From NCBI GenBank assembly GCA_963575745.1, contig CAUYUJ010000203.1, positions 496,001 to 560,000 on the forward strand: a stretch of 64,000 bases of DNA. Direction: 5' to 3'. Of the stretch, positions 11,151 to 43,008 are shown piece by piece. This DNA is from Prorocentrum cordatum. Taxonomy: Eukaryota. Within the stretch, counting starts at the first letter, position 1, and every line of letters starts with the position of its first letter. Made by a program: the position numbers and the translations under genes. The notes under the pieces were generated by a model. The model ran no database searches, was not told the DNA's origin, and saw only the letters and a list, made by a program, of their open reading frames with translations.

Positions 11151-12139
11151 TGTGCCATGAACCTTGTGATAACCTTGACCAGCATTTTACGGCTGCTACG
11201 GCTATCCAAACACCAAGGACACGAGCCATCGGGGGTTACGGCCTCCGGTTCCTCGTCGAACATTCGCCATCGAGCATGCTGGACTGGCACGGTGCGGGAC
11301 TTGCCGCAGGCAGCTGGACAAATAGATACATGTTCTGGGACTCCATACATGCTTGCATATTTGGGAGATTTCGGTCTTCCCCCCATTTCCCAGGTCTTCA
11401 ATCTGTACTCTGAAATCGCGGTCTGTTGTCTGTGCCGATATTTTGGTTCCCCCTCCAGAGCTTCTCCTTCCTCGACGATCCAGGCTGATGGGCAACCGGG
11501 GTAGGGGTCGGGCATCGCCTCCGACCTGGGCCCCGACAAGCTGAGTCGGGCCTCTGCTGACACGGGGGTCAGTGCGAACCCGGGCCAGCCAGGCTTTGCA
11601 GACTCCCGCGAGATCCTGCGGAATCCTGCAGGATTCTGCTCGCTAGCCCGGGTCAATGCAGCCCTGGCTCTGCAGGACCCCTCAGACGAGGCCAGGACGA
11701 GGGGAAAATCGGGTAAGCATAAATCGAGCATCTCTGAGATCTGGCAACTCTGAAAGATGTCTCGTGCGCCGCGGCCTTTTCAGAGCGTTCCGGAGCGCTC
11801 TGAGAGCGTTCCGGAACGCTCTGGAACGAATTGATCCTCGTCCTAGCCCTGTCCGAAATTCTGCTAGATTCGGCGCTCTGGCTGAGCTCCGTTTGCGTTG
11901 GCCCCGTCTCAAGGCTCCCGACCATGACTGGCCGCGCCAGCGCCGCCAGCAGCTGTACAACCCTGCCGCAGGGCGATGCGCCCCACCTGCTTCCCCCCCT
12001 TCTCCTGCTTCTTCCTCCTCCTCCTGCTCCTCCCCCCCCTCCTTCCTCCTCATCCCACCCCCCTTCTCCCTCCTTCCATCTCTTCCCTCCTTCCGCCTCC
12101 CCCTTCCGCCCGAGTCCATCACTTCACTTGTCATTTCGG

Positions 12140-13700
12140 CGATGAGGCATGGACAGGGTTCAAGGATGTGGATGCGCCCAATGATTTACTGCGGGATCCG
12201 GATCTGAATCGGCTTTGGAGCAACGCTGCTAAGCATTGCTGTGGCGCGGGAATGGAAGACGGAGTTGATATGACCTCCATGCGAGCTCTGTATCATCAAC
12301 TGTTGGGCATGCCGCATGGTCTGCGCTTGTCAGCTGTTAGTGACCATAGCCATGGGAGCGTCCTGGCCCAGGCAGAGAAGGCAGAGTCCTGCAGAGCGCG
12401 AGGTATCATTATTTCTAAGCTGTGTCCCCGTTGCGGGGTAGCGGACGAAGACATGTTTCATCGGGCTTGGGGTTGTGAGAAGAACAGCGGATCTCCAGCT
12501 TACGCCGCTTCGGATATTCTGGCAGCAGAAGCTCACACCCAAGCCCAAGCATGTGAATTGTGCTGGCTGCGAGGCCTGATTCCGAATGCCTGGCTAGCGG
12601 TTTCGCCACCAGTCACCGAGGAAGCATGGACGGCAGTTGGCACGGCAGAGTCATGCATTTCGTCCGATTTGTTCGAATGCGGCAGTCCGAATAACCCAAT
12701 TCACGTTTGTGGCGACGCCAGTGGGGGAGCCGATTCGAGTAGCAATCGATTTCGGAGAATGGGCGTTGCCATCGTCAAGATAGGGAACCTTCAGCCGTTC
12801 TGTATGGGCCCATCCATATCGGGACCATTGTGTGGGCTGCGCCGGACGGTGCCTCGCGGAGAGCTGCGAGCGCTCCTTCTCACGGCGCAGTCCACACAAG
12901 GCAATGTTGTATACGTTGCGGACAACAGTGGAGTTGCTGATGGATGGGCGGGGAGACCTTTCGAATCGCCGTCGGGTCCAGATGCAGATTCATGGTGGCA
13001 GCTGGGAGAAATCCCCCAAAGGCGAAATATTGCGGAGCTGTCAGTTCAATTTATCAACTCGCACCAAGACGAGCAGGAGTTGGCCCGCAGTTCTGCGCCG
13101 CCGTGGATGGCGCAGGGCAACACAGTCGCTGATATCCTATGTCGGGCTGCTGCCGACCGAGTCCGAGGTTCCCGAGGCAGAGAGACACGCATCCAGATGT
13201 GGAACGCAAAGCCTTCTTGTGAGAAAACATCTCCTTCGTGAGACGGTCGACTCGCTGGACTGTGACAAATAACTGGATGGTGGTGCCCCCAGGAAAAATT
13301 CTGAGCGGCCTCAGCCCGCGCGAACTCCCACAATTCTGCGTGTTCTCAGTACTTGTCACGTTTTAGCCGAGTGTAGTCGTAGATGTCTGAAACGTTTCAG
13401 CTCCACTACCATTGCTGCTCGTGCAGTTTGGTCTGATCGTCCGTATTAACCCCACAATGTCGATGGGATCTGTATCGAACTTCCAGAAGGAACACCACTG
13501 CACATTGCGGGAGGGGAGGTGCATGACAGTCATCGGATGCGATTGCGTAAGGGGCTCAACGTGTGGTTTTGTTGTCAGTGTGGAAGCTACGCTAGCCAGT
13601 GCTTGCGAGGCCTCGGGCGCCCATGCCTAGAAGCCGCGAATCCGAATAGAGCTGAATACCTCGCTGATATAGCTGCAGGGCGGTGGCCTAAGGCCCGCAG
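12140..13700 (+). mobile_element. 5'-truncated non-LTR retrotransposon fragment: zf-RVT-like + RNase H + C-terminal Cys/His motif
   Basis: zf-RVT-like LCPRCGVADEDMFHRAWGC. RNase H motifs IHVCGDASGG, TVPRGELRALL, YVADN, FINSHQ and GNTVADILC. Downstream HDSHRM..WFCCQCGSYA..LRGLGRPC..IAAGRWP. Frame is broken by stops. Confidence 0.85.
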
Positions 13701-14377: not shown

Positions 14378-14964
14378 TACGTAGCACCGCGGAAATGCGA
14401 ATAAGAGTGAGGGGGCGGTCAACGTTTCACAAATTATACAAAGAGCCCGCCGCAGGCGCCGATTTGTTCGTTACACCAGTGTGGGTAGGTCGGGGGTGGA
14501 TCGCAAATGGGCCGCGTGTAGGTCGCGGGTGTAGAGGGCAGAAAATCCACCCCATAAGAATCACCCCGACAAGCGAAGCCGTTTAGTAAACGCACGCACG
14601 AAACGAATCGAACAGGCCAAGGCTGTTTAGTCAACGCCCAGGGCCGTGTACTAAACGTCAATTGTCGGGTCCGGATGTTTCTGCCTCCCTTGAGGGTGGG
14701 TCGCGGGGTGGGTCGCGGGTGGGTCGCGGGGTGGGTCGCGGGTGGGTCGCGAATGGGTCGCGGATGGGTCGCACGGTGGGTCGCGGGTGGGTCGCAGGGT
14801 GGGTCGCGCGTGAGTCGCGGGTGGGTCGCGGGTGGGTCGCGGGGTGGATAGCCTGTGGGTCGCGGGTTGGATCGCGGGTGGGTCGCTGGGTGGGTCGCGG
14901 GGTGGGTCGCGGGGTGGGTCGCGGGGTGGGTCGCTGGGTGGGTCGCGGGTGGGTCGCGGGTGGG
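14378..14964. repeat. dispersed ~580-bp repeat ending in (GGGTCGCGG[G]T)n, copy 2
   Basis: Homologous to 2305-2876. Confidence 0.9.
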
Positions 14965-15019
14965 ACGACGACGACAACAAGCAACAACAACAACAACAAC
15001 AACAACAATCATTTTACCC

Positions 15020-15830
15020 GAACGCGTGGTGTTCTCCCCAGTGCCAGGGTTTTCATACGACACCAGGCAATACCCCCACTTCGTGGGGGGGCATTACAAG
15101 CTCTACCAAATATCCAAACGACTCTTCGCGACCACCCAAACCCAGCTTCCCGCCCTATGACGTTGGGACACTTCACTTCGTGGCGTGCGGACGACCGTGG
15201 CTACTACACTGGCGTGGGGTACACACCCACAGAACTTGGTCACTTATTCGGGGCGCGCATGTGCCCAGCATGGTGCAATTGTGCCATACAATACATAATA
15301 CAGAGAGACGAATGTGTCCCGCATGGTATTATTTGACAGGGATGATGGCCCTGGCAGGTGCGCAACCGTTGTCGCAGAAGTTCGAAAAAGTTGCTCGCAA
15401 AAGCCCGTTTGACAGAAATGTTTAAAAAGTGTTGGGTTTCCTACGAATCCGCAAGAGCGCGCGGGATGAGATTTTGACATTTTTTTGTTGAAAAACCATT
15501 GGTTTTTTGATGTTTTTATGTTAAAATCGCTCCGAACACTAAGCTTTTGGAAGGATTTCGTCTTGCGCGCGCGAATGTCCACTTTACCTTATTTTTTGCA
15601 AGGGATTCTTGAAATTTGATTATATTAGAACAAGAAATGTCATTTTATAGTGTTTTTTGCAAGGGAAAACGGATTACAACAAAACAACCGGATCTTGATC
15701 ACCTCGAATTACCTGAGGCTTCCTCACGAAAATGATGAAAACGTAGGCTGCGGCCTAGGCGCGGCGGGGGGGGCGCGTGCACCAGGGGGCCCAACAATAA
15801 TTATTCTTTAGAATTAATAATGTTCAACAA
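15020..15830 (-). mobile_element. non-autonomous repeat unit A ('empty' copy), tandem with unit B
   Basis: 15030-15222 matches 15858-16051 and 15310-15834 matches 17503-18030. Lacks the cargo ORF. Flanked by (CAA)n. Confidence 0.85.
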
Positions 15831-17054
15831 CAACTTACTAGCACGTGGGGACACTCCGTTCTCACCAGTGCCAGGGTTTTCATAGGAGGCGGGCAATGCC
15901 CCCACTTTGTGGGGGGGCCGGTTCAAGCTCCACCACATTTCCAAACGACTCTTCGCCACCGCCCACACCCAGCTTCCCGCCCTATGACGTTCGGACACTT
16001 CACTTCGTGGCCTGCGGACGACCTTGGCTACTACACTGGCGCATGGGTACAGTGACTTGTTGTGGTAACATTTTCTGGTCCTACGCTGGCGCAATGCACG
16101 CCTGGTGACGGCCTGGGCGGATGAAGCCGCCGCCTGCACTGAGGAGCTCACCGACGCATACACATCGCACCACTGTCTCAACACTCCTCGGGACACCAAG
16201 ACAGCTTTCCGTCGCATACGCAACACGGCATGCAACGCGTGGTACTTCAGCCCTGGATATACCGCGCGCATGTGGTCACCAAGTGCCGCGTCGAGCTTTT
16301 CAGCCGTGTCATACTGCAAAGGTCCGGAGTCAGGGTGATACTTCACGTACCATTGCCTCAAAACCATACCGCTGACAGCGACGGGAGGGTCGCTCTCCGA
16401 GAGAAGCTGCGAGAGGACCTCCGCGGCGGCCTCGTCGGCGAAGCTCTCCCGATACTGATTGAGTCGAAGACGCTGGCCTATACATTCCTCCACAGCTTGG
16501 GCAGTATTCAATGCCCCCTTGGCGCCCCACTCCGTGCTGAGCCACTTCTGGCATACCCTGGCGTCAGCAGATACAGATAAATGTCCCAGGAGCCACTGCT
16601 TCAAGACGGCCCCGTCAGTAGTCCCCTCGGGCATGTCTGTGCGAATACGTTCTCCATACCAGGTCTCCAGATGGCCAGCGTTCTGCACTTTGACAAGCGT
16701 CTCTTTGGAAGAATACTGCAGTAGCCACGCCGTTGCGACCCTATCTGGCACATATAGTGGTGGATCCAACTGTCGGAGCGCCCCGCATAATTTGAAAGCT
16801 GTATTATACTCGATGCCCAGGTGGCGGATGGCAGAGCCGTGCTGCTCCTCCAGCTCCTTGGCGCTAGAAATACTGACCTTGCCAGGCACAACCCGATACT
16901 TGCCCCACCAAGTCTTGCACGCCTGGTGACTGGCCTGGATACCCTTTGCAACGAGCGCCTGATGCAAATGATACGGGCTGCCGCAGTCAGCCAAGGGAGG
17001 CCGCGACAGCTCTGGGCCATACTGGTCGTCAAGGGCTTTCGCCGACAAAGCCAT
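15801..17054 (-). CDS. intronless protein with five tandem ~60-aa HTH-like repeats (417 aa including a read-through tail)
   Basis: ATG at 17054 (MALSAK), 26 nt after a relict SL. Repeat pattern (S/T/N)A..L...G..+R ... L...L......(V/A)(S/P/D)..(V/A)...W...(Y/W) occurs five times. After about 16150 the frame runs through the element end to TAA at 15801. Confidence 0.8.
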   Translation of the reverse strand: MALSAKALDDQYGPELSRPPLADCGSPYHLHQALVAKGIQASHQACKTWWGKYRVVPGKVSISSAKELEEQHGSAIRHLGIEYNTAFKLCGALRQLDPPLYVPDRVATAWLLQYSSKETLVKVQNAGHLETWYGERIRTDMPEGTTDGAVLKQWLLGHLSVSADARVCQKWLSTEWGAKGALNTAQAVEECIGQRLRLNQYRESFADEAAAEVLSQLLSESDPPVAVSGMVLRQWYVKYHPDSGPLQYDTAEKLDAALGDHMRAVYPGLKYHALHAVLRMRRKAVLVSRGVLRQWCDVYASVSSSVQAAASSAQAVTRRALRQRRTRKCYHNKSLYPCASVVAKVVRRPRSEVSERHRAGSWVWAVAKSRLEMWWSLNRPPHKVGALPASYENPGTGENGVSPRASKLLLNIINSKE

Positions 17055-17165
17055 GACCCATCCAAGAACACAGGCGATACCTTGATCCGAGATGGCTACG
17101 GATGTGACAGTGATCAGTGATTTTGTTCGATGACGTGGTGACGCACGGACTTGTTGTGGTAACAT
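16054..17165. repeat. perfect 18-bp direct repeat GACTTGTTGTGGTAACAT at 16054-16071 and 17148-17165 bracketing the cargo
   Basis: Identical 18-mers read directly from the sequence. Confidence 0.95.
17081..17102 (-). promoter_or_regulatory. relict dinoflagellate spliced leader (DinoSL)
   Basis: Minus strand TCCGTAGCCATCTCGGATCAAG vs DinoSL DCCGTAGCCATTTTGGCTCAAG: 19/22, in sense orientation just 5' of the ORF. Confidence 0.9.
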
Positions 17166-17167
17166 GC

Positions 17168-17209
<42 letters not shown>

Positions 17210-18024
17210 CATGTGTCCCGCATGGTATTTTTTGCAAGGGATTGTGGCCCCTGGCAGGCGCGCGAACGCCGTTGAAAGAGCGTGCGAAAGTAGCTCGCGC
17301 GAGCTCATGTAACATAAATGTTGAAAAACCATTTGTTTTTAAGGATTCGGACAGCGCGCGCGGGTAGAAATTTGGAAAATCCGTGCACGTGTTTTTCGAG
17401 GACCTACGGTGCGATTCGTGCGATTTTATGATACGCGGTGCTGAAATTCTTAAGAAACCCAATGGTGTTTGAAGATTTCGGCGTGCGCGCGCGAAGAAAA
17501 AACGAATGTGTCCCATATGGTATTATTTGACAGGGATGATGGCCCTGGCATGCGCGCAACCGTTGTTGCAGAAGTTCGAAGCACGTGAAAAAGTTGCTCG
17601 CAAGAGCCCGTTTGACAGAAATGTTGAAAAAGTAGTGGGTTTCCTAAGAAATCCGCAAGAGCGCGCGGGATGAATTTTGAAGCTTTTTTTTTGAAAAACC
17701 ATTGGGTTTTTCATGTTTTTATGTTAAAATCGCTACGAAAACTAAGGTTTTGGAAGGATTTCATCTTGCGCGCGCGAGTGTGCACTTCGTGTCATTTTTT
17801 GCAAAGGATTATTGAAGTTTGGTTATGTTAGAACAAGACATGTCATTTTATATTGTTTTTTGACAGGGAAAGCGGGCGTCAACAAAACAACCGGATCCGC
17901 ACTCCCCCGTTTTGCTTGAGACTTCCTCACGGAAATGATGAAAATGTGGCTGCGGCCTAGGCGCGGCGAGGGGGGCGTGCACCAGGGGGCCCAACAATAA
18001 TTATTCTTTAGAAGTAATAATATT

Positions 18025-18230
18025 CAACAACAACAACAACAACCACAACAACAACAACAACAGCAACAACAACAACGACGACGACGACGACAACAGCAAC
18101 AACACCACCAACACCAACACCAACACCAACAACAGCAACCACTACAACAACAACACCACAACCAACACCAACATCAACAACAACAACACTAACAACAACA
18201 ACAACAACCACTACAACAACAACGCAACAG
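18025..18230. repeat. (CAA)n microsatellite
   Basis: Direct reading. Confidence 0.95.
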
Positions 18231-19226: not shown

Positions 19227-20700
19227 ATAACATGTGTTCGCAATTGTTTCTGCTTTAACCCTCCCCACCTCATCCCTTTCTGATTCCCCCCTTCCTCCCT
19301 CCCTCACTCCTCTCCTCCATCTCTGCACAATGGCGTCCAACATCTGGATTGCGGTGCGGCCCAAAGCGCGTGAAACGCCTCTGAGAGACGTTTGCCAGGA
19401 CGCTTGGAAGGATGTCTGGGGAGCTCGCAAGCTCGAGAAAGGAGCTTCGCAGGAGCTTCCGAGGAGCTCCGAAGGAGGTGCGGAAAGACTTGTGGCACGC
19501 GTATTGAGAACGAGTAGGAAAACGCTCTCGGGACAAGCTGCACGTTCAAGCAATCTGCTGCGGCGCTGCTTGAGCCGCGCCCGAAGAAAAAAAGAATCAT
19601 AGCGCGAAAAGCGTGAAAAGAGCGAAAAGCAAAAAAGAAGAGACAAAACAAACAAAAAAATAAGATAACTTAAAGATAACATGGATAAGAAAAACTAACG
19701 AAAAACAATACAAAGAGAAAAAAAAGAGAGAAAAATAAAAAGAAAAATTAAGGAAAAAAAGCAAAGCACAAAAGCTCGCCGACTGCGGCGCTGGCGCCAT
19801 GGTTGAAGTTGAGATAGCTGCCACGGCCTACCCTGCGCTGCCGTCTTCTAATCTGCAGGCCCTCCTATCTCTCAGAGAGCTTATCCGGGAATAGATGCCC
19901 CTCCCATCCTCCTCCCATTCTTCACTCCCTCCCACCTCTCGTTCTCCTCCTCCTCCTCCTCCGCCTCCTCCTCCTCCTCCTCCTCCTTTCCTCTCTCCTC
20001 CTCCTCCTCCTCCTCCTCTCTCCTCCTCCTCCCCCTCCTCGCACCTCCTCCGCCCTCCTCCGCCTCCTCCTCCCTCCTCCCTCCTCGTGCTCGCCATCAC
20101 CTCTCCCTGCTCCCATCCGCCTCCTCTCCCTCCTCCCTCCCTCCCTCCCTCCCTCCCTCCCTCCCTCCCTCCCCGCCCTTAAGGCCGGGTCGGGCTGGGT
20201 CGGGATCGGCTGGGCCGGGCCAGGCCGGGCCAGGCCGGGCCCTCTCCATCTCCTCCCTCTCCCTCCTCTCTGCCCTCCCTACCTCCTCCCCCGCTCCTTT
20301 GCGGCGGGTCCGTGCCGACGCATTGTGGCTAGGCGATCGAGGTTGAGCGTCTCCCTTGCGGTTCTGTCTGGTGTCTGAAGCCGGTGCCGCGTCTTTTTGG
20401 CTGGGACCTGCTGTTCGAAGGAGTGGTCCTGGAGGGGGATCGGACGGCCCCGAGAGGACGGGCCTGCGCGTGGTGGATGGGGCCCAGGGTCGACTCAGCA
20501 CACCGTCCCTTGCCGCTCATCCTGACCGCTCTCAGGAAGCCACCGGCCCTCGTCCCATGGGTTTTTCTGAGCCGCTGAGGGGCGAGGGGCAAGCTCTCGA
20601 CGGCGTGCTGGCTCCGTCCCCCCCCCCCTCTGTTCTGTCCTCCTTCCCCTCCCTCCTCTCTCGTCTTCCGCAGCTGTTGGTTCCAGGGAGCCCGCCAGTA

Positions 20701-20870
20701 CAGTCAACCCGCATAATAGGGATGGGCAGCCTTCTCAGGGCACCCTTGCTTCCTTGCCCCTTCGGTGGGTTTTTTGCTGCGCTCCTTGGCCGTGCTCCGC
20801 TCGTGAGCTTCGTTTCTTTGTCCCTGGCCCTTGCATTCTTATCGCGCATCCTTACTGCACGGATTGACTG
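20701..20870. mobile_element. Tc1/mariner(pogo)-type MITE, copy 1
   Basis: TA|CAGTCAACCCG ... CGGATTGACTG|TA gives TIRs plus a TA target duplication. Reverse-complement homolog at 32078-32250. Confidence 0.8.
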
Positions 20871-20922
20871 TAGCAAGGCCCCCCGCCCACTGCCTACACT
20901 ACCCACGCCATCTGGAAGCGGC

Positions 20923-22947
20923 ATGGAAGGGCCTCCTGCCAAGCGGACCAAGTCCACGGAGCAGGAGGTTGGCTCCTCGGTGGAGGTGCAGCAGGATGTA
21001 GTCCTAAAGTTCTGGATGGCGCACAGGCCCAGTATGCGTGCCAGTCTGGGGGCAGCGGCGGCTTTTGAGTACAAGCACAACCCTGGTGGTCCCTGCAAGA
21101 AAACAATTTACGAGAGGTCCGTGAAGCACCAATGGAACCTCATGGAGCCGGCCCAACAGTCGTCCTGGAGGGCCGCGGCGGCAGCAGGCGGCCCACCCCC
21201 GGGTCAGGTTGCCCTCGCTTTCCTGGCCACGCAGAGTGACTCGCCCCCGGAATCTTCGGCCGGTGGCCTAGACGCACAGAGGGGGCCCCAGGCCGCCGCC
21301 CGGGCGGGCGCCTGCTCCGAGGCCGGCCAGAACCAAGACCAGGGTTTCCCGCAAGAGCAGGGCGCAGCCAGCCGGAAGGAGCTCTCGATCGAGCACGGCG
21401 CTTTTGCGGCGCAGTGTCAGGGCTGCGGAGCCACGGGCGTGCAGCTCGTCGTGGGCCAGGGCGTCTTCGCGGAGACCTCCTACTGCAAGGCCTGCTGGGG
21501 CACCTGGAACACCGCCCAGGCCAGCGTGGAGAAGACCTCCCCCCCCTCGGCCGGCGCAGGGCTGCAGCCCGCGAGCTGCGCCGCAGCTCCGGCCGAGGAG
21601 CGCGCGGAGCAGGTGGGGGCGAAGGGGCAGGCCGCAGCCGGCGGTGAGGAGCATGCGCTCGAGCGTGGCGCTTCCCTGGCGCAGTGCCAGGGTTGCGGAG
21701 CCGCGGGCGTGCAGCTCGTCGGGGGCCAGGGCGTCTTCGCGGAGTCCCTCTACTGCGAGGCCTGCTGGGGCGCCTGGAACACTGCCCAGGTCAACGCGGG
21801 GAAGACCTCCCCCCCTGCAGCTGGCGCAGGGCTGCAGCCCGCGAGCTTCGCCGCAGCCCCGGCCGAGGAACACCCGGCGAAGCTGGAGGCGAAGGAGGGG
21901 GCCGCAGCCAGCGGAGAGGCGCTCTCGCTCGAGAACGACGCTGTCGCGGCGCAGTGCAAGGGCTGCGGAGCCGCGGGCGTGCAGCTCGTAGCGGGCCAGG
22001 GCGTCTTCGCGGAGACCTCCTACTGCGAGACCTGCTGGGGCACCTGGAATACCGCCCAGACCAGCGCGGAGAAGGCCCCCCTGCCCCCCGCAGCCAGCGC
22101 AGCGCTGCAGCCGACGAGCTTCGCCGGGCTCTACGAGCCTGCCCAGCAGACGGTCCCGGGCGGCCGCGGAGTCGGACCTGGGCAGGGCACTTGTGCTGGG
22201 TTCGGAGCCAGCGCCTTGCCGACCCTTGCTTGCACGGTGTGCGGCCAGAAGGGGTATGCTCTCGTCGCCACCGCGGGGCCCTCGGGGCTGACGCTCCTGT
22301 GTGGCTCTTGCGGCCCAGCCAGTTCCCTTGGGGGGGGCGCGGTGCCCCAGGCGCAGGCCCGGGCCATGCTGGGTCAGGAACGCGACGCCCAGGCCCGGGT
22401 CTTGCTGCCCGCTGCGAGCGCAGCGACGAGCCCCTCCGGCGAGCTCGGGGCCGGGGGGGGAGCCGTGACGCCGACGCGGAAGGCCGGCGACCCGCTGTTC
22501 CCGGAGTTCGAGCGTGCGCAGGCCCCGGCGCCAGCAGCGGTGGACAAGCGCCGCGTGGACAGGTGGGTGCGGAGGCTCCCAGACAGGAGTCTTCCTTCAG
22601 ACCGGGTTGTGCTGTACTGGGCATACACTCACCCTGTGGGCAGCCCTCTTATGGCCACCGGCAAGTGGTGCCACATCCCGAAGAAGTCCTCCGACCCCAA
22701 GGGAGTGCTGTTGCAATTTGGGCGGAAAAAAGGAGCAGCCCACGTATGGCTTCGCAAGCAGGGCCATGTGCACGTGTTCGCCAGCGCGGGGGCCACGGAC
22801 CAGATCTTGGCCCAGATCGAGGCCTGGACCGTGCCCTGGAACAACGGCAACCCGCCCGTTCCCTGGGCGGCCGGCGGTCAGCCGAGGCTTCCGAGCCTGC
22901 CGCCGTTGCCGCCGGCAGAGTGGTCGCCGCCCCTGGCGTCTGACTGA
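20923..22947 (+). CDS. intronless 674-aa protein: HMG-box-like N-terminus, three 90-aa repeats each with a CxxC-x19-CxxC zinc finger, a fourth degenerate finger, and an unknown C-terminal domain
   Basis: NLS-like PPAKRTK. LKFWMAHRPSMR...SVKHQWNLMEPAQQSSW resembles HMG helices. CQGCGATGVQLVVGQGVFAETSYCKACWGTW recurs with a 270-bp period (about 21381, 21651, 21921). Open for 2025 nt in non-microsatellite sequence. Confidence 0.75.
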   Translation: MEGPPAKRTKSTEQEVGSSVEVQQDVVLKFWMAHRPSMRASLGAAAAFEYKHNPGGPCKKTIYERSVKHQWNLMEPAQQSSWRAAAAAGGPPPGQVALAFLATQSDSPPESSAGGLDAQRGPQAAARAGACSEAGQNQDQGFPQEQGAASRKELSIEHGAFAAQCQGCGATGVQLVVGQGVFAETSYCKACWGTWNTAQASVEKTSPPSAGAGLQPASCAAAPAEERAEQVGAKGQAAAGGEEHALERGASLAQCQGCGAAGVQLVGGQGVFAESLYCEACWGAWNTAQVNAGKTSPPAAGAGLQPASFAAAPAEEHPAKLEAKEGAAASGEALSLENDAVAAQCKGCGAAGVQLVAGQGVFAETSYCETCWGTWNTAQTSAEKAPLPPAASAALQPTSFAGLYEPAQQTVPGGRGVGPGQGTCAGFGASALPTLACTVCGQKGYALVATAGPSGLTLLCGSCGPASSLGGGAVPQAQARAMLGQERDAQARVLLPAASAATSPSGELGAGGGAVTPTRKAGDPLFPEFERAQAPAPAAVDKRRVDRWVRRLPDRSLPSDRVVLYWAYTHPVGSPLMATGKWCHIPKKSSDPKGVLLQFGRKKGAAHVWLRKQGHVHVFASAGATDQILAQIEAWTVPWNNGNPPVPWAAGGQPRLPSLPPLPPAEWSPPLASD

Positions 22948-41938: not shown

Positions 41939-42946
41939 CTATCCGATGGAGTCTCCCAGCGAACAATGTTCGCAATCTACCTCTCGCTCGGATGGCATCA
42001 CGCCGCGAGAAACAAAGTAGCTGTGTCCATAGTCGATGAATACCTCCTCGTCCACAATGATACTGCGTCGCGCGACGAACACGATCGTGTCCATATCCAC
42101 GTCGTGAAACCAATCAATGTGCGGGTCTGGGGAGTGGTTAAACAAAGCACCGAGACCGAGTGCTAGCAGTATGTCGGGCTCGTGGCCAGAGGAAAAACGC
42201 ATCGCGTAGTCGCGTAGGAGGTGTCTCGCCTCCCCGTTAAGACGAACCACGGGGCAGAGCTCCAAGATCTGGCCTTCCTCACACGATCTCGTGCAGAACA
42301 CGCCTGTGCCGTGCACTGGCGACGCGCCGTGCCGAAGACAGCTCCCCAGAGGGGCCAACTTCTCCAGCGGCATGCTGCGAGCATCCACTATAATTTTTGG
42401 GGCACTGACCGTCACCGGCCTTGCCAGGAGCTGGTGCCAACCGGCTGGAGCGAGCAGCTCTTGACCCTCTGATATCAATGAAGTGGCTACCCAGCGCAAC
42501 TCACTACCATCGAGCATGGGCTCGATGTTCATTCCAAAATCCACGCGGCGGTACAGGCAGCTGAATCCGAAGGGCATCGCTAAATGAAGAGCGCCGGCTC
42601 GTTGCACAGCGAACGCGCCACTTGCCAGAAGCTCCGACTCGCTCATCTGCTCGACTGTGCATGGGGTCGAAAAGAGCGGGCAAGCTTCCACTAGCTCGTT
42701 CGGTGCTCTCTGCCTGGTTGCCAGCCACACTCCATGACCACATCCTGTCGCGTCCAATCGCACCTCCAGGCCCCACTGCGAGCTGTATCCCCTGGTCCTG
42801 TTAGCGGCGGAGATGCGACCAATGTGCCTGCCGAGAATCCGCACGCGCGACCCACGATCGTCTCGCCACCCCATCTGCGCGCTGTGCTGGCAACGCCTTA
42901 CCAGCACCTCGTGCAGCTCGGAAAGCCTTTCCCCAAGATCGGCCAT
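41939..42946 (-). CDS. intronless tandem-SET protein (degenerate SET + intact vSET/bacterial-type SET), 335 aa, nested in a PqiA intron
   Basis: Second domain: SPVHGTGVFCTR..GQILELCPV..LALGLGALFNHSPDP..FVARRSI.VDEEVFIDYGHSYF. First domain: GCGHGVWLATR..NELVEACP..AMPFGFSCLY..WVATSLISEGQELL, lacking NHS and the terminal Tyr. Confidence 0.9.
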   Translation of the reverse strand: MADLGERLSELHEVLVRRCQHSAQMGWRDDRGSRVRILGRHIGRISAANRTRGYSSQWGLEVRLDATGCGHGVWLATRQRAPNELVEACPLFSTPCTVEQMSESELLASGAFAVQRAGALHLAMPFGFSCLYRRVDFGMNIEPMLDGSELRWVATSLISEGQELLAPAGWHQLLARPVTVSAPKIIVDARSMPLEKLAPLGSCLRHGASPVHGTGVFCTRSCEEGQILELCPVVRLNGEARHLLRDYAMRFSSGHEPDILLALGLGALFNHSPDPHIDWFHDVDMDTIVFVARRSIIVDEEVFIDYGHSYFVSRGVMPSEREVDCEHCSLGDSIG

Positions 42947-43008
42947 GGCGCAATGGGAGGCCTTTCATGCAGACCATGCACTGGGTGGGGCAGTGAACCT
43001 TCCAGCTG

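What the first reader, a model, noticed from the sequence alone, without database searches (positions are those of the whole stretch)
16150..17054. Unrecognised protein made of five tandem HTH-like modules
Seen: five ~60-aa repeats: SAKALDDQYG..HLHQAL..IQASHQACKTWWGKY; SAKELEEQHG..KLCGAL..LYVPDRVATAWLLQY; NAGHLETWYG..VLKQWL..VSADARVCQKWL; TAQAVEECIG..VLSQLL..VAVSGMVLRQWYVKY; TAEKLDAALG..ALHAVL..VLVSRGVLRQWCDVY. They are diverged in DNA but conserved in pattern, which implies selection. Known: L...L....+.VS..T+.RW is the DNA-binding HTH of IS630/Tc1-type transposases. Inference: a catalytic-domain-free, multivalent DNA binder that could bind its own element's sub-terminal repeats or act as a chromatin protein in a histone-poor nucleus. 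It has no stop codon before the element boundary.
Basis: partly seen in the sequence, partly recalled or inferred. Interest (0 to 1): 0.7.

Follow-up and report, generated by a model that had tools for sequence, protein, structure and literature searches.

The report
Truncated rolling-circle transposase with HTH array
The five repeats are real, but they are the broken-off front end of a large rolling-circle (Helitron-type) transposase from a marine microbe; the interesting part is that this transposon family carries an unusual chain of DNA-reading modules whose likely contact residues change fast between copies.

Summary
The five ~58-aa repeats are real and fold as three-helix, HTH-type modules. 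They are not a stand-alone protein. The ORF (ATG 17054, minus strand) is the first ~320 residues of a ~2,050-aa Helitron-like RepHel transposase. Copies 93-97% identical run on past the break at ~16092. A 2,064-aa relative (45% identical over the repeats) and one contig carry the array, extra degenerate modules, a four-Cys motif, an HUH/Y2 Rep and a Pif1-like helicase; the Rep-helicase model's top Foldseek match is the Helitron transposase 7LCC. The window copy is an internal-deletion derivative sitting between the ends of a very abundant non-autonomous repeat, flanked by (GTT)n microsatellites. Splice sites in relatives point to a dinoflagellate-like host. The catalytic partner is HUH, not DDE. 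What is new is the family: a 7+ module HTH array on a Helitron transposase (not found in my literature searches), ends fitting neither HLE1 nor HLE2 rules, and amino-acid changes between close copies clustered in helix 3 of repeats 1-2 (12 non-synonymous, 0 synonymous in one pair; post hoc, positive selection not proven). DNA binding itself is untested.

The parts
16092..17054 (-). 5' fragment (~320 codons) of a Helitron-like RepHel transposase gene
   Evidence: 97% nt identity to L001, which continues in frame past this point; 93-95% aa identity to P0054/P0047; 45% to aa 5-299 of the 2,064-aa P0263
16881..17051 (-). HTH-like repeat 1 (aa 2-58); helix 3 highly variable among close copies
16704..16874 (-). 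HTH-like repeat 2 (aa 61-117); helix 3 highly variable among close copies
16515..16691 (-). HTH-like repeat 3 (aa 122-180); helix 3 nearly invariant
16323..16511 (-). HTH-like repeat 4 (aa 182-244); holds the site (about 16477/16478) where sister copy L001 has a 94-nt GC-AG intron that the window lacks
16146..16316 (-). HTH-like repeat 5 (aa 247-303)
16072..16109 (-). Deletion junction: homology to full-length copies ends at ~16092; 16095-16109 is an exact 15-nt copy of 16916-16930 and 16081-16093 is a 12/13 copy of 16031-16043, suggesting templated joining
   Evidence: D8, D11; interpretation inferred
16054..16071 (-). 18-nt direct repeat M, downstream copy
   Evidence: (D7), 100% identical to 17148-17165
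17148..17165 (-). 18-nt direct repeat M, upstream copy, next to a (GTC)n tract at ~17167-17205
   Evidence: also present in L001
15835..16051 (-). End segment A2 of the element with a 7-bp stem hairpin at 15899-15915; in other copies followed by (GTT)n
   Evidence: 88% identical to A1; hairpin; 75 loose-end records of AAC repeats at 15835 in run X1
17208..18034 (-). Upstream non-coding segment (B2 17502-18034 plus diverged partial copy B' 17208-17376) with ~300-nt spaced degenerate direct repeats, candidate binding sites
   Evidence: D1-D6; start of B' also lies upstream of the ORF in L001
15008..15834 (-). Adjacent non-autonomous copy (B1 15308-15834 plus A1 15031-15223, hairpin 15073-15089), no ORF
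   Evidence: 87-88% identical to B2/A2; depth far above the ORF in X1 and X4; 158 loose-end records of AAC repeats at 15834 in X1
18026..18225 (.). (AAC)n/(GTT)n microsatellite bordering the element on the upstream side
14965..15008 (.). (AAC)n/(GAC)n microsatellite bordering the cluster on the downstream side

Best explanation
The ORF is the surviving 5' end of a Helitron-like rolling-circle transposase gene in an internally deleted, non-autonomous copy, probably dead, in a marine dinoflagellate-like genome. SHOWN: in intact relatives one ~2,050-aa protein carries five HTH-like modules, a basic KRPAA-repeat linker, at least two more degenerate modules, a CxxC...CxxC motif, an HUH/two-tyrosine Rep nuclease and an SF1B Pif1-like helicase. 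FROM ESTABLISHED HELITRON BIOLOGY: Rep nicks one strand at the element end and forms a phosphotyrosine link, the helicase peels the strand off, a hairpin near the far end stops copying, and the strand is joined to a new site. INFERRED (about 55%): the HTH array is the double-stranded DNA-reading arm that loads the enzyme on the element's degenerate sub-terminal repeats, taking the role of Helraiser's N-terminal DNA-binding region. INFERRED (about 30%): its helix-3 residues diversify, possibly because a large excess of non-autonomous copies competes for the enzyme. In this copy a deletion removed everything after codon ~320 and joined the stub to the element's other end.
For: P0054 and P0047 are 93-95% identical over aa 1-299 and continue for 958-1,036 aa. 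L001 is 97% identical in DNA and continues in frame beyond window 16092. P0263 is one uninterrupted 2,064-aa protein with the array (45% identity, E 5e-81), Rep motifs at 1165, 1230 and 1289 and helicase motifs at 1636-1960, and Pfam AAA_30 at E 3e-13. Contig L002 holds the whole gene in order; without its two insertions it reads 2,025 codons with no internal stop. 24 of 29 array-bearing proteins of 380 aa or more share the downstream region of P0263 (near-duplicates included). The model of L002's Rep-helicase part matches 7lcc_A, Helitron transposase, first by Foldseek (E 1.5e-20) and over 616 residues by VIA-align (Z 23.7, rmsd 12.5). Pfam Helitron_like_N passes its cut-off in the more distant P0257 and P0318 (36 bits vs 28.9). 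No Rep or helicase remnant exists in the 64-kb window. Flank segments show about 150x (X1) and 43x (X4) the ORF's contig depth. Helraiser lacking its N-terminal 489 aa neither binds nor cleaves DNA (PMC4778049, passages).
Against: No full-length copy of the window's own subfamily was recovered: P0054, P0047 and L001 stop before the Rep, so Rep and helicase are shown only in relatives 45-47% identical. HTH assignment rests on low Z-scores (best 4.8; the tool warns that Z under 8 may be only a common arrangement); Foldseek found nothing at E<=0.001 in PDB or BFVD; Pfam HTH hits are below cut-off (HTH_28 in 3 of 130 members). Repeats 3 and 4 are not basic (pI 6.1 and 4.6). The ends fit neither HLE1 nor HLE2 rules, and their polarity is uncertain because L002 has an A-(GTT)n-B junction upstream of its ORF. 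The helix-3 excess is absent in repeats 3-4 and helix-3 pN is not significantly above overall pS (p 0.11). Contig depth is not copy number (tool caveat).
Confidence: 0.87

Rival explanations
1. Same transposase, but the HTH array reads the target rather than the element: it steers insertion into (GTT)n/(AAC)n microsatellites, a harmless landing site, much as Paramecium Helitrons are proposed to target telomeric repeats.
For: Other copies diverge into AAC repeats exactly at both ends (158 and 75 loose-end records at 15834/15835 in X1, agreement 0.98-1.0; also seen in X15 and X17). 6 of 6 runs of four or more AAC/GTT units in the 64-kb window lie at the two outer edges of this cluster. L002 has the same (GTT)n at its A-B junction. 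Precedent: PMC13085455 section 18.
Against: No empty site was seen, so the microsatellite may be part of the element. A fixed simple target would not predict fast-changing helix-3 residues, although invariant repeats 3-4 could serve it.
Confidence: 0.25
2. The truncated copy is itself functional as a dominant-negative repressor: it makes a 417-aa array-only protein that occupies element ends without cutting, like the P-element KP protein.
For: The frame is intact from ATG through all five modules to a stop at 15801, the upstream region is kept, and low-depth RNA-library contigs cover parts of the ORF. KP-type repressors from small non-autonomous P elements are known (PMC7776569, passages).
Against: Depth is lowest in the junction bin, and none of the 32 listed contig pieces (75,197 more not shown) bridges it. 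The KRPAA linker, a likely nuclear-import signal, is lost. Other copies break at other places (P0070). The RNA contigs may be DNA carry-over or come from intact copies.
Confidence: 0.08
3. A domesticated, stand-alone multivalent chromatin protein of a histone-poor nucleus.
For: Two distant hits, P0179 (about 7 modules) and P0159 (about 4-5), show no match to the downstream RepHel region; their genomic context is unknown.
Against: The window ORF is embedded in transposon ends, is 97% identical to a copy that continues into the transposase, and has no stop of its own.
Confidence: 0.02
4. N-terminus of a DDE (IS630/Tc1/mariner) transposase.
For: Sub-threshold Pfam hints: HTH_33 E 0.015, HTH_48 E 0.064.
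Against: No DDE family was reported at E<=1 in the long array-bearing relatives scanned; the downstream domains are HUH Rep and helicase.
Confidence: 0.01

Closest known systems
Helraiser / Helitron1 (HLE1), PDB 7LCC
   Same: N-terminal putative DNA-binding region, HUH Rep with two tyrosines, SF1B helicase in one chain; hairpin near one end; top structural match (PMC4778049 passages).
   Different: Helraiser's N-terminus is described as an NLS plus a zinc-finger-like motif, not an HTH array; 1,496 vs ~2,050 aa. It was not recovered by sequence search (phmmer E<=1; profile E<=5). No 5'-TC or terminal CTRR here; the hairpin is ~60 nt from the end rather than ~11.
HLE2 (Helitron2, Helentron, proto-Helentron, HLE2-reverse) and their DINE-1/HINE non-autonomous partners
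   Same: Small hydroxyl residue and upstream basic residue in Rep motif 2 (T in 77 of 83, S in 6, L in 0; K/R two before the Glu in 83 of 83; near-duplicates included); T-rich flanks; internal microsatellite; non-autonomous copies outnumber autonomous ones (PMC4067079 passages). A Helitron2-like element is reported from Symbiodinium microadriaticum (PMC8788227 passages).
   Different: No sub-terminal inverted repeats found; no AP endonuclease; DUF6570, an HLE2 marker in PMC11417382 (sections 22, 24), not detected at E<=1; an HTH array is not among the additional domains named in section 22 (its Table S11 was not read). Relationship to the Symbiodinium element was not tested.
Paramecium HLE clade (PMC13085455)
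   Same: Alveolate host if my host inference holds; divergent RepHel; every copy flanked by a simple repeat; ORF-less derivatives (section 18).
   Different: Targets telomeric hexamers; transposases 3,052-3,592 aa (supplement 1); no mention of HTH or Myb in that supplement's text (its domain figure is an image I could not read). No sequence comparison was possible.
P-element KP protein
   Same: Internally deleted transposon copy retaining only the N-terminal DNA-binding part (PMC7776569 passages).
   Different: DDE/THAP system; KP is widespread and shown to repress, whereas this junction looks rare and is untested.
Tandem Myb repeats (R2R3-MYB, c-Myb) and winged-HTH domains (ArgR, Fur)
   Same: Three-helix modules; 6kks_A aligns over two consecutive repeats (Z 4.5, 103 residues, rmsd 4.3) and 3ere_D over one (Z 4.8, 50 residues, rmsd 2.5).
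   Different: 15% identity or less, no Pfam Myb hit, 7+ modules fused to a transposase.

Membership tests
Helitron-like elements (RepHel) | HUH Rep domain with HxH motif and two catalytic tyrosines (in full-length relatives) | tested here: met
   Motifs at P0263 1165, 1230, 1289; motif 2 in 83 fetched proteins; Helitron_like_N above cut-off in P0257 and P0318, below it (18 bits) in P0263
Helitron-like elements (RepHel) | SF1B Pif1-like helicase fused C-terminal to Rep | tested here: met
   AAA_30 E 3e-13; VIA-align Z 30.2 to Pif1, 348 aligned, rmsd 2.8
Helitron-like elements (RepHel) | Overall structural likeness to a Helitron transposase | tested here: met
   7lcc_A rank 1 by Foldseek, E 1.5e-20; VIA-align Z 23.7, 616 aligned, rmsd 12.5
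Helitron-like elements (RepHel) | Stem-loop near one terminus | tested here: met
   7-bp stem in A1 and A2 and in L002 with one two-sided change; only 3 sequences, and whole-segment folding z-scores are not significant
Autonomous Helitron (this window copy) | Copy itself encodes Rep and helicase | tested here: not met
   tblastn of P0034, P0231, P0233, P0254 against the window matches only 16158-17054
HLE1 (canonical Helitron) | 5'-TC and terminal CTRR-3', insertion between A and T | tested here: not met
   B begins after (GTT)n without TC; CTAG lies about 5 nt inside the A2 end and is absent from A1 and L002; exact termini are blurred by the microsatellite
HLE2 (Helitron2/Helentron) | Short (11-17 nt) sub-terminal inverted repeats | tested here: not met
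   0 matches in 3 end pairings at 10 nt exact, 12 nt with 1 mismatch, 14 nt with 2 mismatches, using the first 150 nt of B against A; depends on my end assignment
HLE2 (Helitron2/Helentron) | Diagnostic Rep motif-2 residues (Ser not Leu; nearby Arg) | tested here: inconclusive
   Thr 77, Ser 6, Leu 0 of 83; Lys/Arg two before Glu in 83 of 83 (rule from PMC4067079)
HLE2 (Helitron2/Helentron) | DUF6570 upstream of Rep | tested here: inconclusive
   Not reported at E<=1 for P0263, P0034, P0318; a segment before Rep resembles it by recall only
HLE2 (Helitron2/Helentron) | Insertion at TT | not testable with these tools
   Flanks are (GTT)n but no host assembly or empty site was available
Helentron | C-terminal AP endonuclease | tested here: not met
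   P0263 and L002 end in a short acidic tail after the helicase; no endonuclease family hit
HLE1 / HLE2 / Paramecium clades | Phylogenetic placement of Rep and helicase | not tested
Replitron | HUH Rep without helicase | tested here: not met
   Helicase is fused; definition recalled, with passages of PMC10288648 read
IS630/Tc1/mariner | DDE/D catalytic domain after the HTH | tested here: not met
   None reported at E<=1 in long array-bearing relatives
Helix-turn-helix superfamily | Three-helix module superposing on HTH domains | tested here: met
   pLDDT 91.5, three helices per repeat; about 40 of the top 50 structural neighbours are HTH-class by recall, but Z is only 3.4-4.8
Helix-turn-helix superfamily | Helix 3 binds the DNA major groove | not testable with these tools
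   Indirect only: variation clusters in helix 3 of repeats 1-2

The most novel reading that the evidence does not exclude
These elements form a separate, undescribed Helitron clade of marine dinoflagellate-like protists whose transposase reads DNA with a modular array of seven or more HTH units. Some units are under diversifying selection at their recognition helices, like a zinc-finger array, letting autonomous copies switch end specificity and escape a many-fold excess of non-autonomous parasites, while invariant units aim insertion at (GTT)n microsatellites.
Probability: 0.22. Interest if true: 0.8.

Novelty: new variant of a known kind. Interest (0 to 1): 0.5.

Why it matters
The locus itself is a broken transposon copy, which is ordinary. 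The family matters for three reasons. How Helitron transposases recognise their ends and choose targets in double-stranded DNA is poorly understood, and here the N-terminus is a compact, confidently modelled, repeat-built array with natural sequence variants and candidate sites beside it, which makes a recognition code directly testable. The ends obey neither HLE1 nor HLE2 rules, so standard annotation tools would probably miss the family, yet its non-autonomous partners look extremely abundant and may be a large unannotated part of the host's genome. If helix-3 diversification holds up, it is a clear case of an arms race between an autonomous transposon and its own derivatives, and a natural modular DNA reader fused to a copy-and-paste enzyme.

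Tried and rejected
No host assembly was held, so copy numbers, empty sites and full-length copies of this subfamily could not be examined. Pfam on the window protein gave only Slx4 at E 0.02. PDB sequence search with the array profile gave 0 hits at E<=10. Foldseek on the whole five-domain model gave 0 hits at E<=0.001 in PDB and BFVD; single repeats were not folded separately. The ESM Atlas gave no usable hit in 2 of 2 searches; this shows neither absence nor novelty. No relative was found in viral contigs (0 of 13 candidates). Prokaryote genome hits L006-L007 (and L005) are weak; L007's match lies in an unrelated membrane protein sharing one short word, so I rejected them. Phage and plasmid collections matched only the helicase at 24-29% identity. 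Motif scans of viral contigs for the element ends gave 1 chance match, 102 loci with no extended match, and 0 hits. Rfam found nothing above chance in 14900-18100. CTAG at ~15838-15841 as a canonical Helitron 3' end was rejected (not terminal, not shared). RNA-library contigs over the ORF (depth 2-9) are not taken as proof of transcription, and no spliced-leader evidence was obtained. One helix-3 test that added three positions chosen after seeing the data (p 0.005) is disregarded; the polar-only test (p 0.034) is the one quoted. Earlier scan findings: 3 look-ups, nothing returned. Literature: searches for Helitron + dinoflagellate, Helitron + helix-turn-helix + RepHel + N-terminal, HLE2/HELIANO, Helraiser structure, Helitron + Prorocentrum and target specificity + microsatellite showed no description of a tandem-HTH Helitron; subscription papers (including the 7LCC structure paper) and Repbase were not searchable.

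Full report
Observation. The finding lies on the minus strand from ATG 17052-17054. The frame stays open for 417 codons to TAA at 15801-15803. Five repeats of about 58 aa are present at aa 2-58, 61-117, 122-180, 182-244 and 247-303. They are more than chance: 10 of 10 profile pairs align over 50-56 columns, 9 with probability above 96%, while 20 of 20 reversed controls score 1.6% or less. AlphaFold2 on a 130-sequence alignment models five separate three-helix domains with mean pLDDT 91.5 and pTM 0.54, consistent with beads on a string. VIA-align's best matches are ArgR (Z 4.8, 50 residues, rmsd 2.5) and R2R3-MYB (Z 4.5, 103 residues across two repeats, rmsd 4.3); about 40 of the 50 rows are HTH, Myb or winged-helix domains by my recall of those entries. 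The scores are low, Foldseek found nothing significant and Pfam HTH hits are below cut-off. HTH-type is therefore likely but not proven, and no specific HTH family can be named.

It is a fragment. The protein has many relatives: 31 near-length hits and 3 longer ones, and 409 representatives at E<=0.001. The closest long ones, P0054 (1,036 aa) and P0047 (958 aa), are 93-95% identical over aa 1-299 and continue where the window protein diverges. Contig L001 is 97% identical in DNA and runs on in frame past window position ~16092. The window's last ~97 codons are read-through of non-coding element DNA. No further piece of the transposase exists in the 64-kb window.

What the full protein is. P0263 is an uninterrupted 2,064-aa protein: five repeats (45% identical to the window protein, E 5e-81), a linker with three KRPAA motifs, two weaker repeats at 378-431 and 448-488, CxxC motifs at 754 and 822, Rep motifs at 1165, 1230 and 1289, and helicase motifs from 1636 to about 1960 (Pfam AAA_30 E 3e-13). 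Contig L002 carries the same order in one piece of DNA and reads 2,025 codons without a stop once two insertions are left out. 24 of 29 array-bearing proteins of at least 380 aa share P0263's downstream region, near-duplicates included; the 5 that do not are P0070, P0092, P0159, P0168, P0179. A model of L002's Rep-helicase part (pLDDT 72.8) has the Helitron transposase 7LCC as its first Foldseek match (E 1.5e-20) and aligns to it over 616 residues (Z 23.7, rmsd 12.5), with Pif1 helicases at Z 30. By sequence, PDB searches recovered RecD2 and Pif1 helicases but not 7LCC, so the family is remote from canonical Helitrons. Caveat: Rep and helicase were seen only in relatives 45-47% identical to the window protein, since the closest copies' contigs end earlier.

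The element. On the minus strand the window reads: (GTT)n, segment B2 (18034-17502), a diverged partial copy B', (GTC)n, an 18-nt repeat M, the ORF stub, a ~20-nt junction, M again, segment A2 (16051-15835), then directly B1 and A1 without an ORF, then (GTT)n. A carries a 7-bp hairpin about 60 nt from its end. Laying four runs on 15230-17165 showed median contig depth over A and B about 150 times (X1) and 43 times (X4) that over the ORF; depth is not copy number, but a large excess of ORF-less copies is the simple reading. Loose ends show other copies passing from A straight into (GTC)n (X15, X17, one contig each), and into AAC repeats at both outer ends (158 and 75 records in X1; 559 weaker loose ends were not shown). 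6 of 6 runs of four or more AAC/GTT units in the window sit at the cluster's two edges. L002, whose protein is only 47% identical, has a recognisable A-(GTT)n-B junction 1 kb upstream of its ORF, with a two-sided change in the hairpin. That may be a tandem neighbour or a reversed layout like HLE2-reverse (PMC11417382 section 24); I cannot tell which. No sub-terminal inverted repeats were found, and CTAG is neither terminal nor shared.

Host. The runs holding this DNA are mostly marine metagenomes. L001 has a 94-nt GC-AG intron and L002 a 553-nt GA-AG intron, each bounded by a short direct repeat. GC and GA donors of this kind are typical of dinoflagellates (recalled), so the host is probably a dinoflagellate or close alveolate. 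This is inference.

Variation between copies. After noticing the pattern by eye, I tested it. Between the window and L001 (319 codons; 21 non-synonymous, 9 synonymous changes; pN 0.029, pS 0.040), the turn plus helix 3 holds 12 non-synonymous and 0 synonymous changes, against 9 and 9 elsewhere (Fisher p 0.004). Among 50 distinct proteins at least 80% identical to P0054, mean entropy in repeats 1-3 is 0.33 for turn plus helix 3, 0.10 and 0.17 for helices 1 and 2, and 0.16 for linkers (p 0.013 against the other helices, 0.13 against linkers), and p 0.034 for polar positions only. Position 51 takes 8 residues, 48, 105 and 108 take 5 each. Against this: the effect comes from repeats 1-2, helix 3 of repeat 3 is nearly invariant, repeats 4-5 show no helix-3 excess (p 0.85, 7-10 sequences), helix-3 pN is not significantly above overall pS (p 0.11), the sequences are related metagenome assemblies, and some are surely dead copies. 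The pattern fits DNA-contact residues under change but does not prove positive selection.

Mechanism. Established for Helitrons: Rep nicks and joins single strands through two tyrosines, the helicase unwinds, a hairpin ends copying, and Helraiser needs its N-terminal region to bind and cut DNA (PMC4778049, passages read). Inferred here: the HTH array is that binding arm and most likely reads the degenerate, ~300-nt spaced repeats in B and B'; some modules may instead read the (GTT)n target. The window copy arose by internal deletion with templated joining (exact 15-nt and 12/13-nt local copies at the junction) and can only move in trans. It is probably dead: the junction bin has the lowest depth in the ORF region in X1 and no listed contig bridges it, and the KRPAA linker is lost. 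A KP-like repressor role (PMC7776569, passages) is possible but unsupported.

Comparison and novelty. It works like a Helitron and meets the protein-level definition in intact relatives. It fails the terminal rules of HLE1 and the inverted-repeat rule of HLE2, leans to HLE2 in Rep motif 2 (PMC4067079 passages), and lacks the Helentron endonuclease. No tree was built, so clade membership is open. Papers seen: PMC11417382 (passages and sections 21, 22, 24), PMC13085455 (passages, section 18 part 1, text of supplement 1; two supplements too large to read), PMC8788227, PMC4067079, PMC4778049, PMC10288648, PMC12130899, PMC7776569 (passages). None of what I read describes a tandem-HTH Helitron; one Helitron2-like element from Symbiodinium is reported and was not compared. 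Unread supplements, Repbase and subscription papers could hold a prior description.

Verdict. Observation confirmed; interpretation partly supported. The locus is a truncated Helitron-like transposase copy. The family is a new variant of a known kind with an unusual, apparently fast-evolving HTH array. Interest 0.5.

Noticed in passing
L001 797-890 (window site about 16477/16478): A 94-nt GC-AG intron bounded by a 6-nt direct repeat is present in some copies of the transposase gene and precisely absent from the window, P0054, P0047, P0003 and distant relatives; many database proteins end at exactly this point (about 195 aa). Looks like recent intron gain within one transposon subfamily.
   Followed up: partly
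L002 9628-10217: A ~585-nt insertion with 16-nt terminal inverted repeats (14 of 16 matching) and a 5-nt target duplication interrupts the transposase gene; it lacks normal splice ends, so it is either a MITE that kills this copy or a non-canonical introner.
   Followed up: partly
L002 4637-4880: About 250 nt homologous to the window's A-(GTT)n-B junction lies 1 kb upstream of a transposase only 47% identical; non-coding ends are conserved across a deep protein divergence.
   Followed up: partly
P0318 / P0257 (cluster of 106 members): A more distant RepHel (36% identical to P0263 over Rep-helicase) has a different run of small helical repeats, one matching the unit HMM (E 4e-7), preceded by an N-terminal segment with an OTU-protease-like motif (recalled; Pfam did not detect it).
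   Followed up: partly
P0179, P0159: Distant proteins made of about 7 and 4-5 modules with no match to the downstream RepHel region; possible stand-alone arrays or other fragments, context unknown.
   Followed up: no
window 16095-16109 and 16916-16930: An exact 15-nt repeat; the two differences from L001 next to the break both make the sequence match repeat 1 helix 3, suggesting template switching at the deletion junction.
   Followed up: partly
P0292, P0294 (cluster of P0254): Fragments of this family are deposited as proteins of a bacterial MAG on contigs of 571 and 1,450 nt; probably mis-binned eukaryotic DNA.
   Followed up: no
window 41942-42964 (-): Open frame with a SET domain above Pfam cut-off (E 1.7e-9).
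   Followed up: no
window 20347-22947 (+): 866-codon open frame with about four tandem units each holding two CxxC motifs; only sub-threshold Pfam hits.
   Followed up: no
window 11928-13241 (+): Open frame with a weak zf-RVT hit (E 0.14) and an RNase H-like stretch by eye; probably a decayed non-LTR retrotransposon fragment.
   Followed up: no
window 14420-14847 and 2395-2859: An 83% identical ~450-nt repeat ending in a GGGTCGCG-type minisatellite lies directly beside the element cluster.
   Followed up: no
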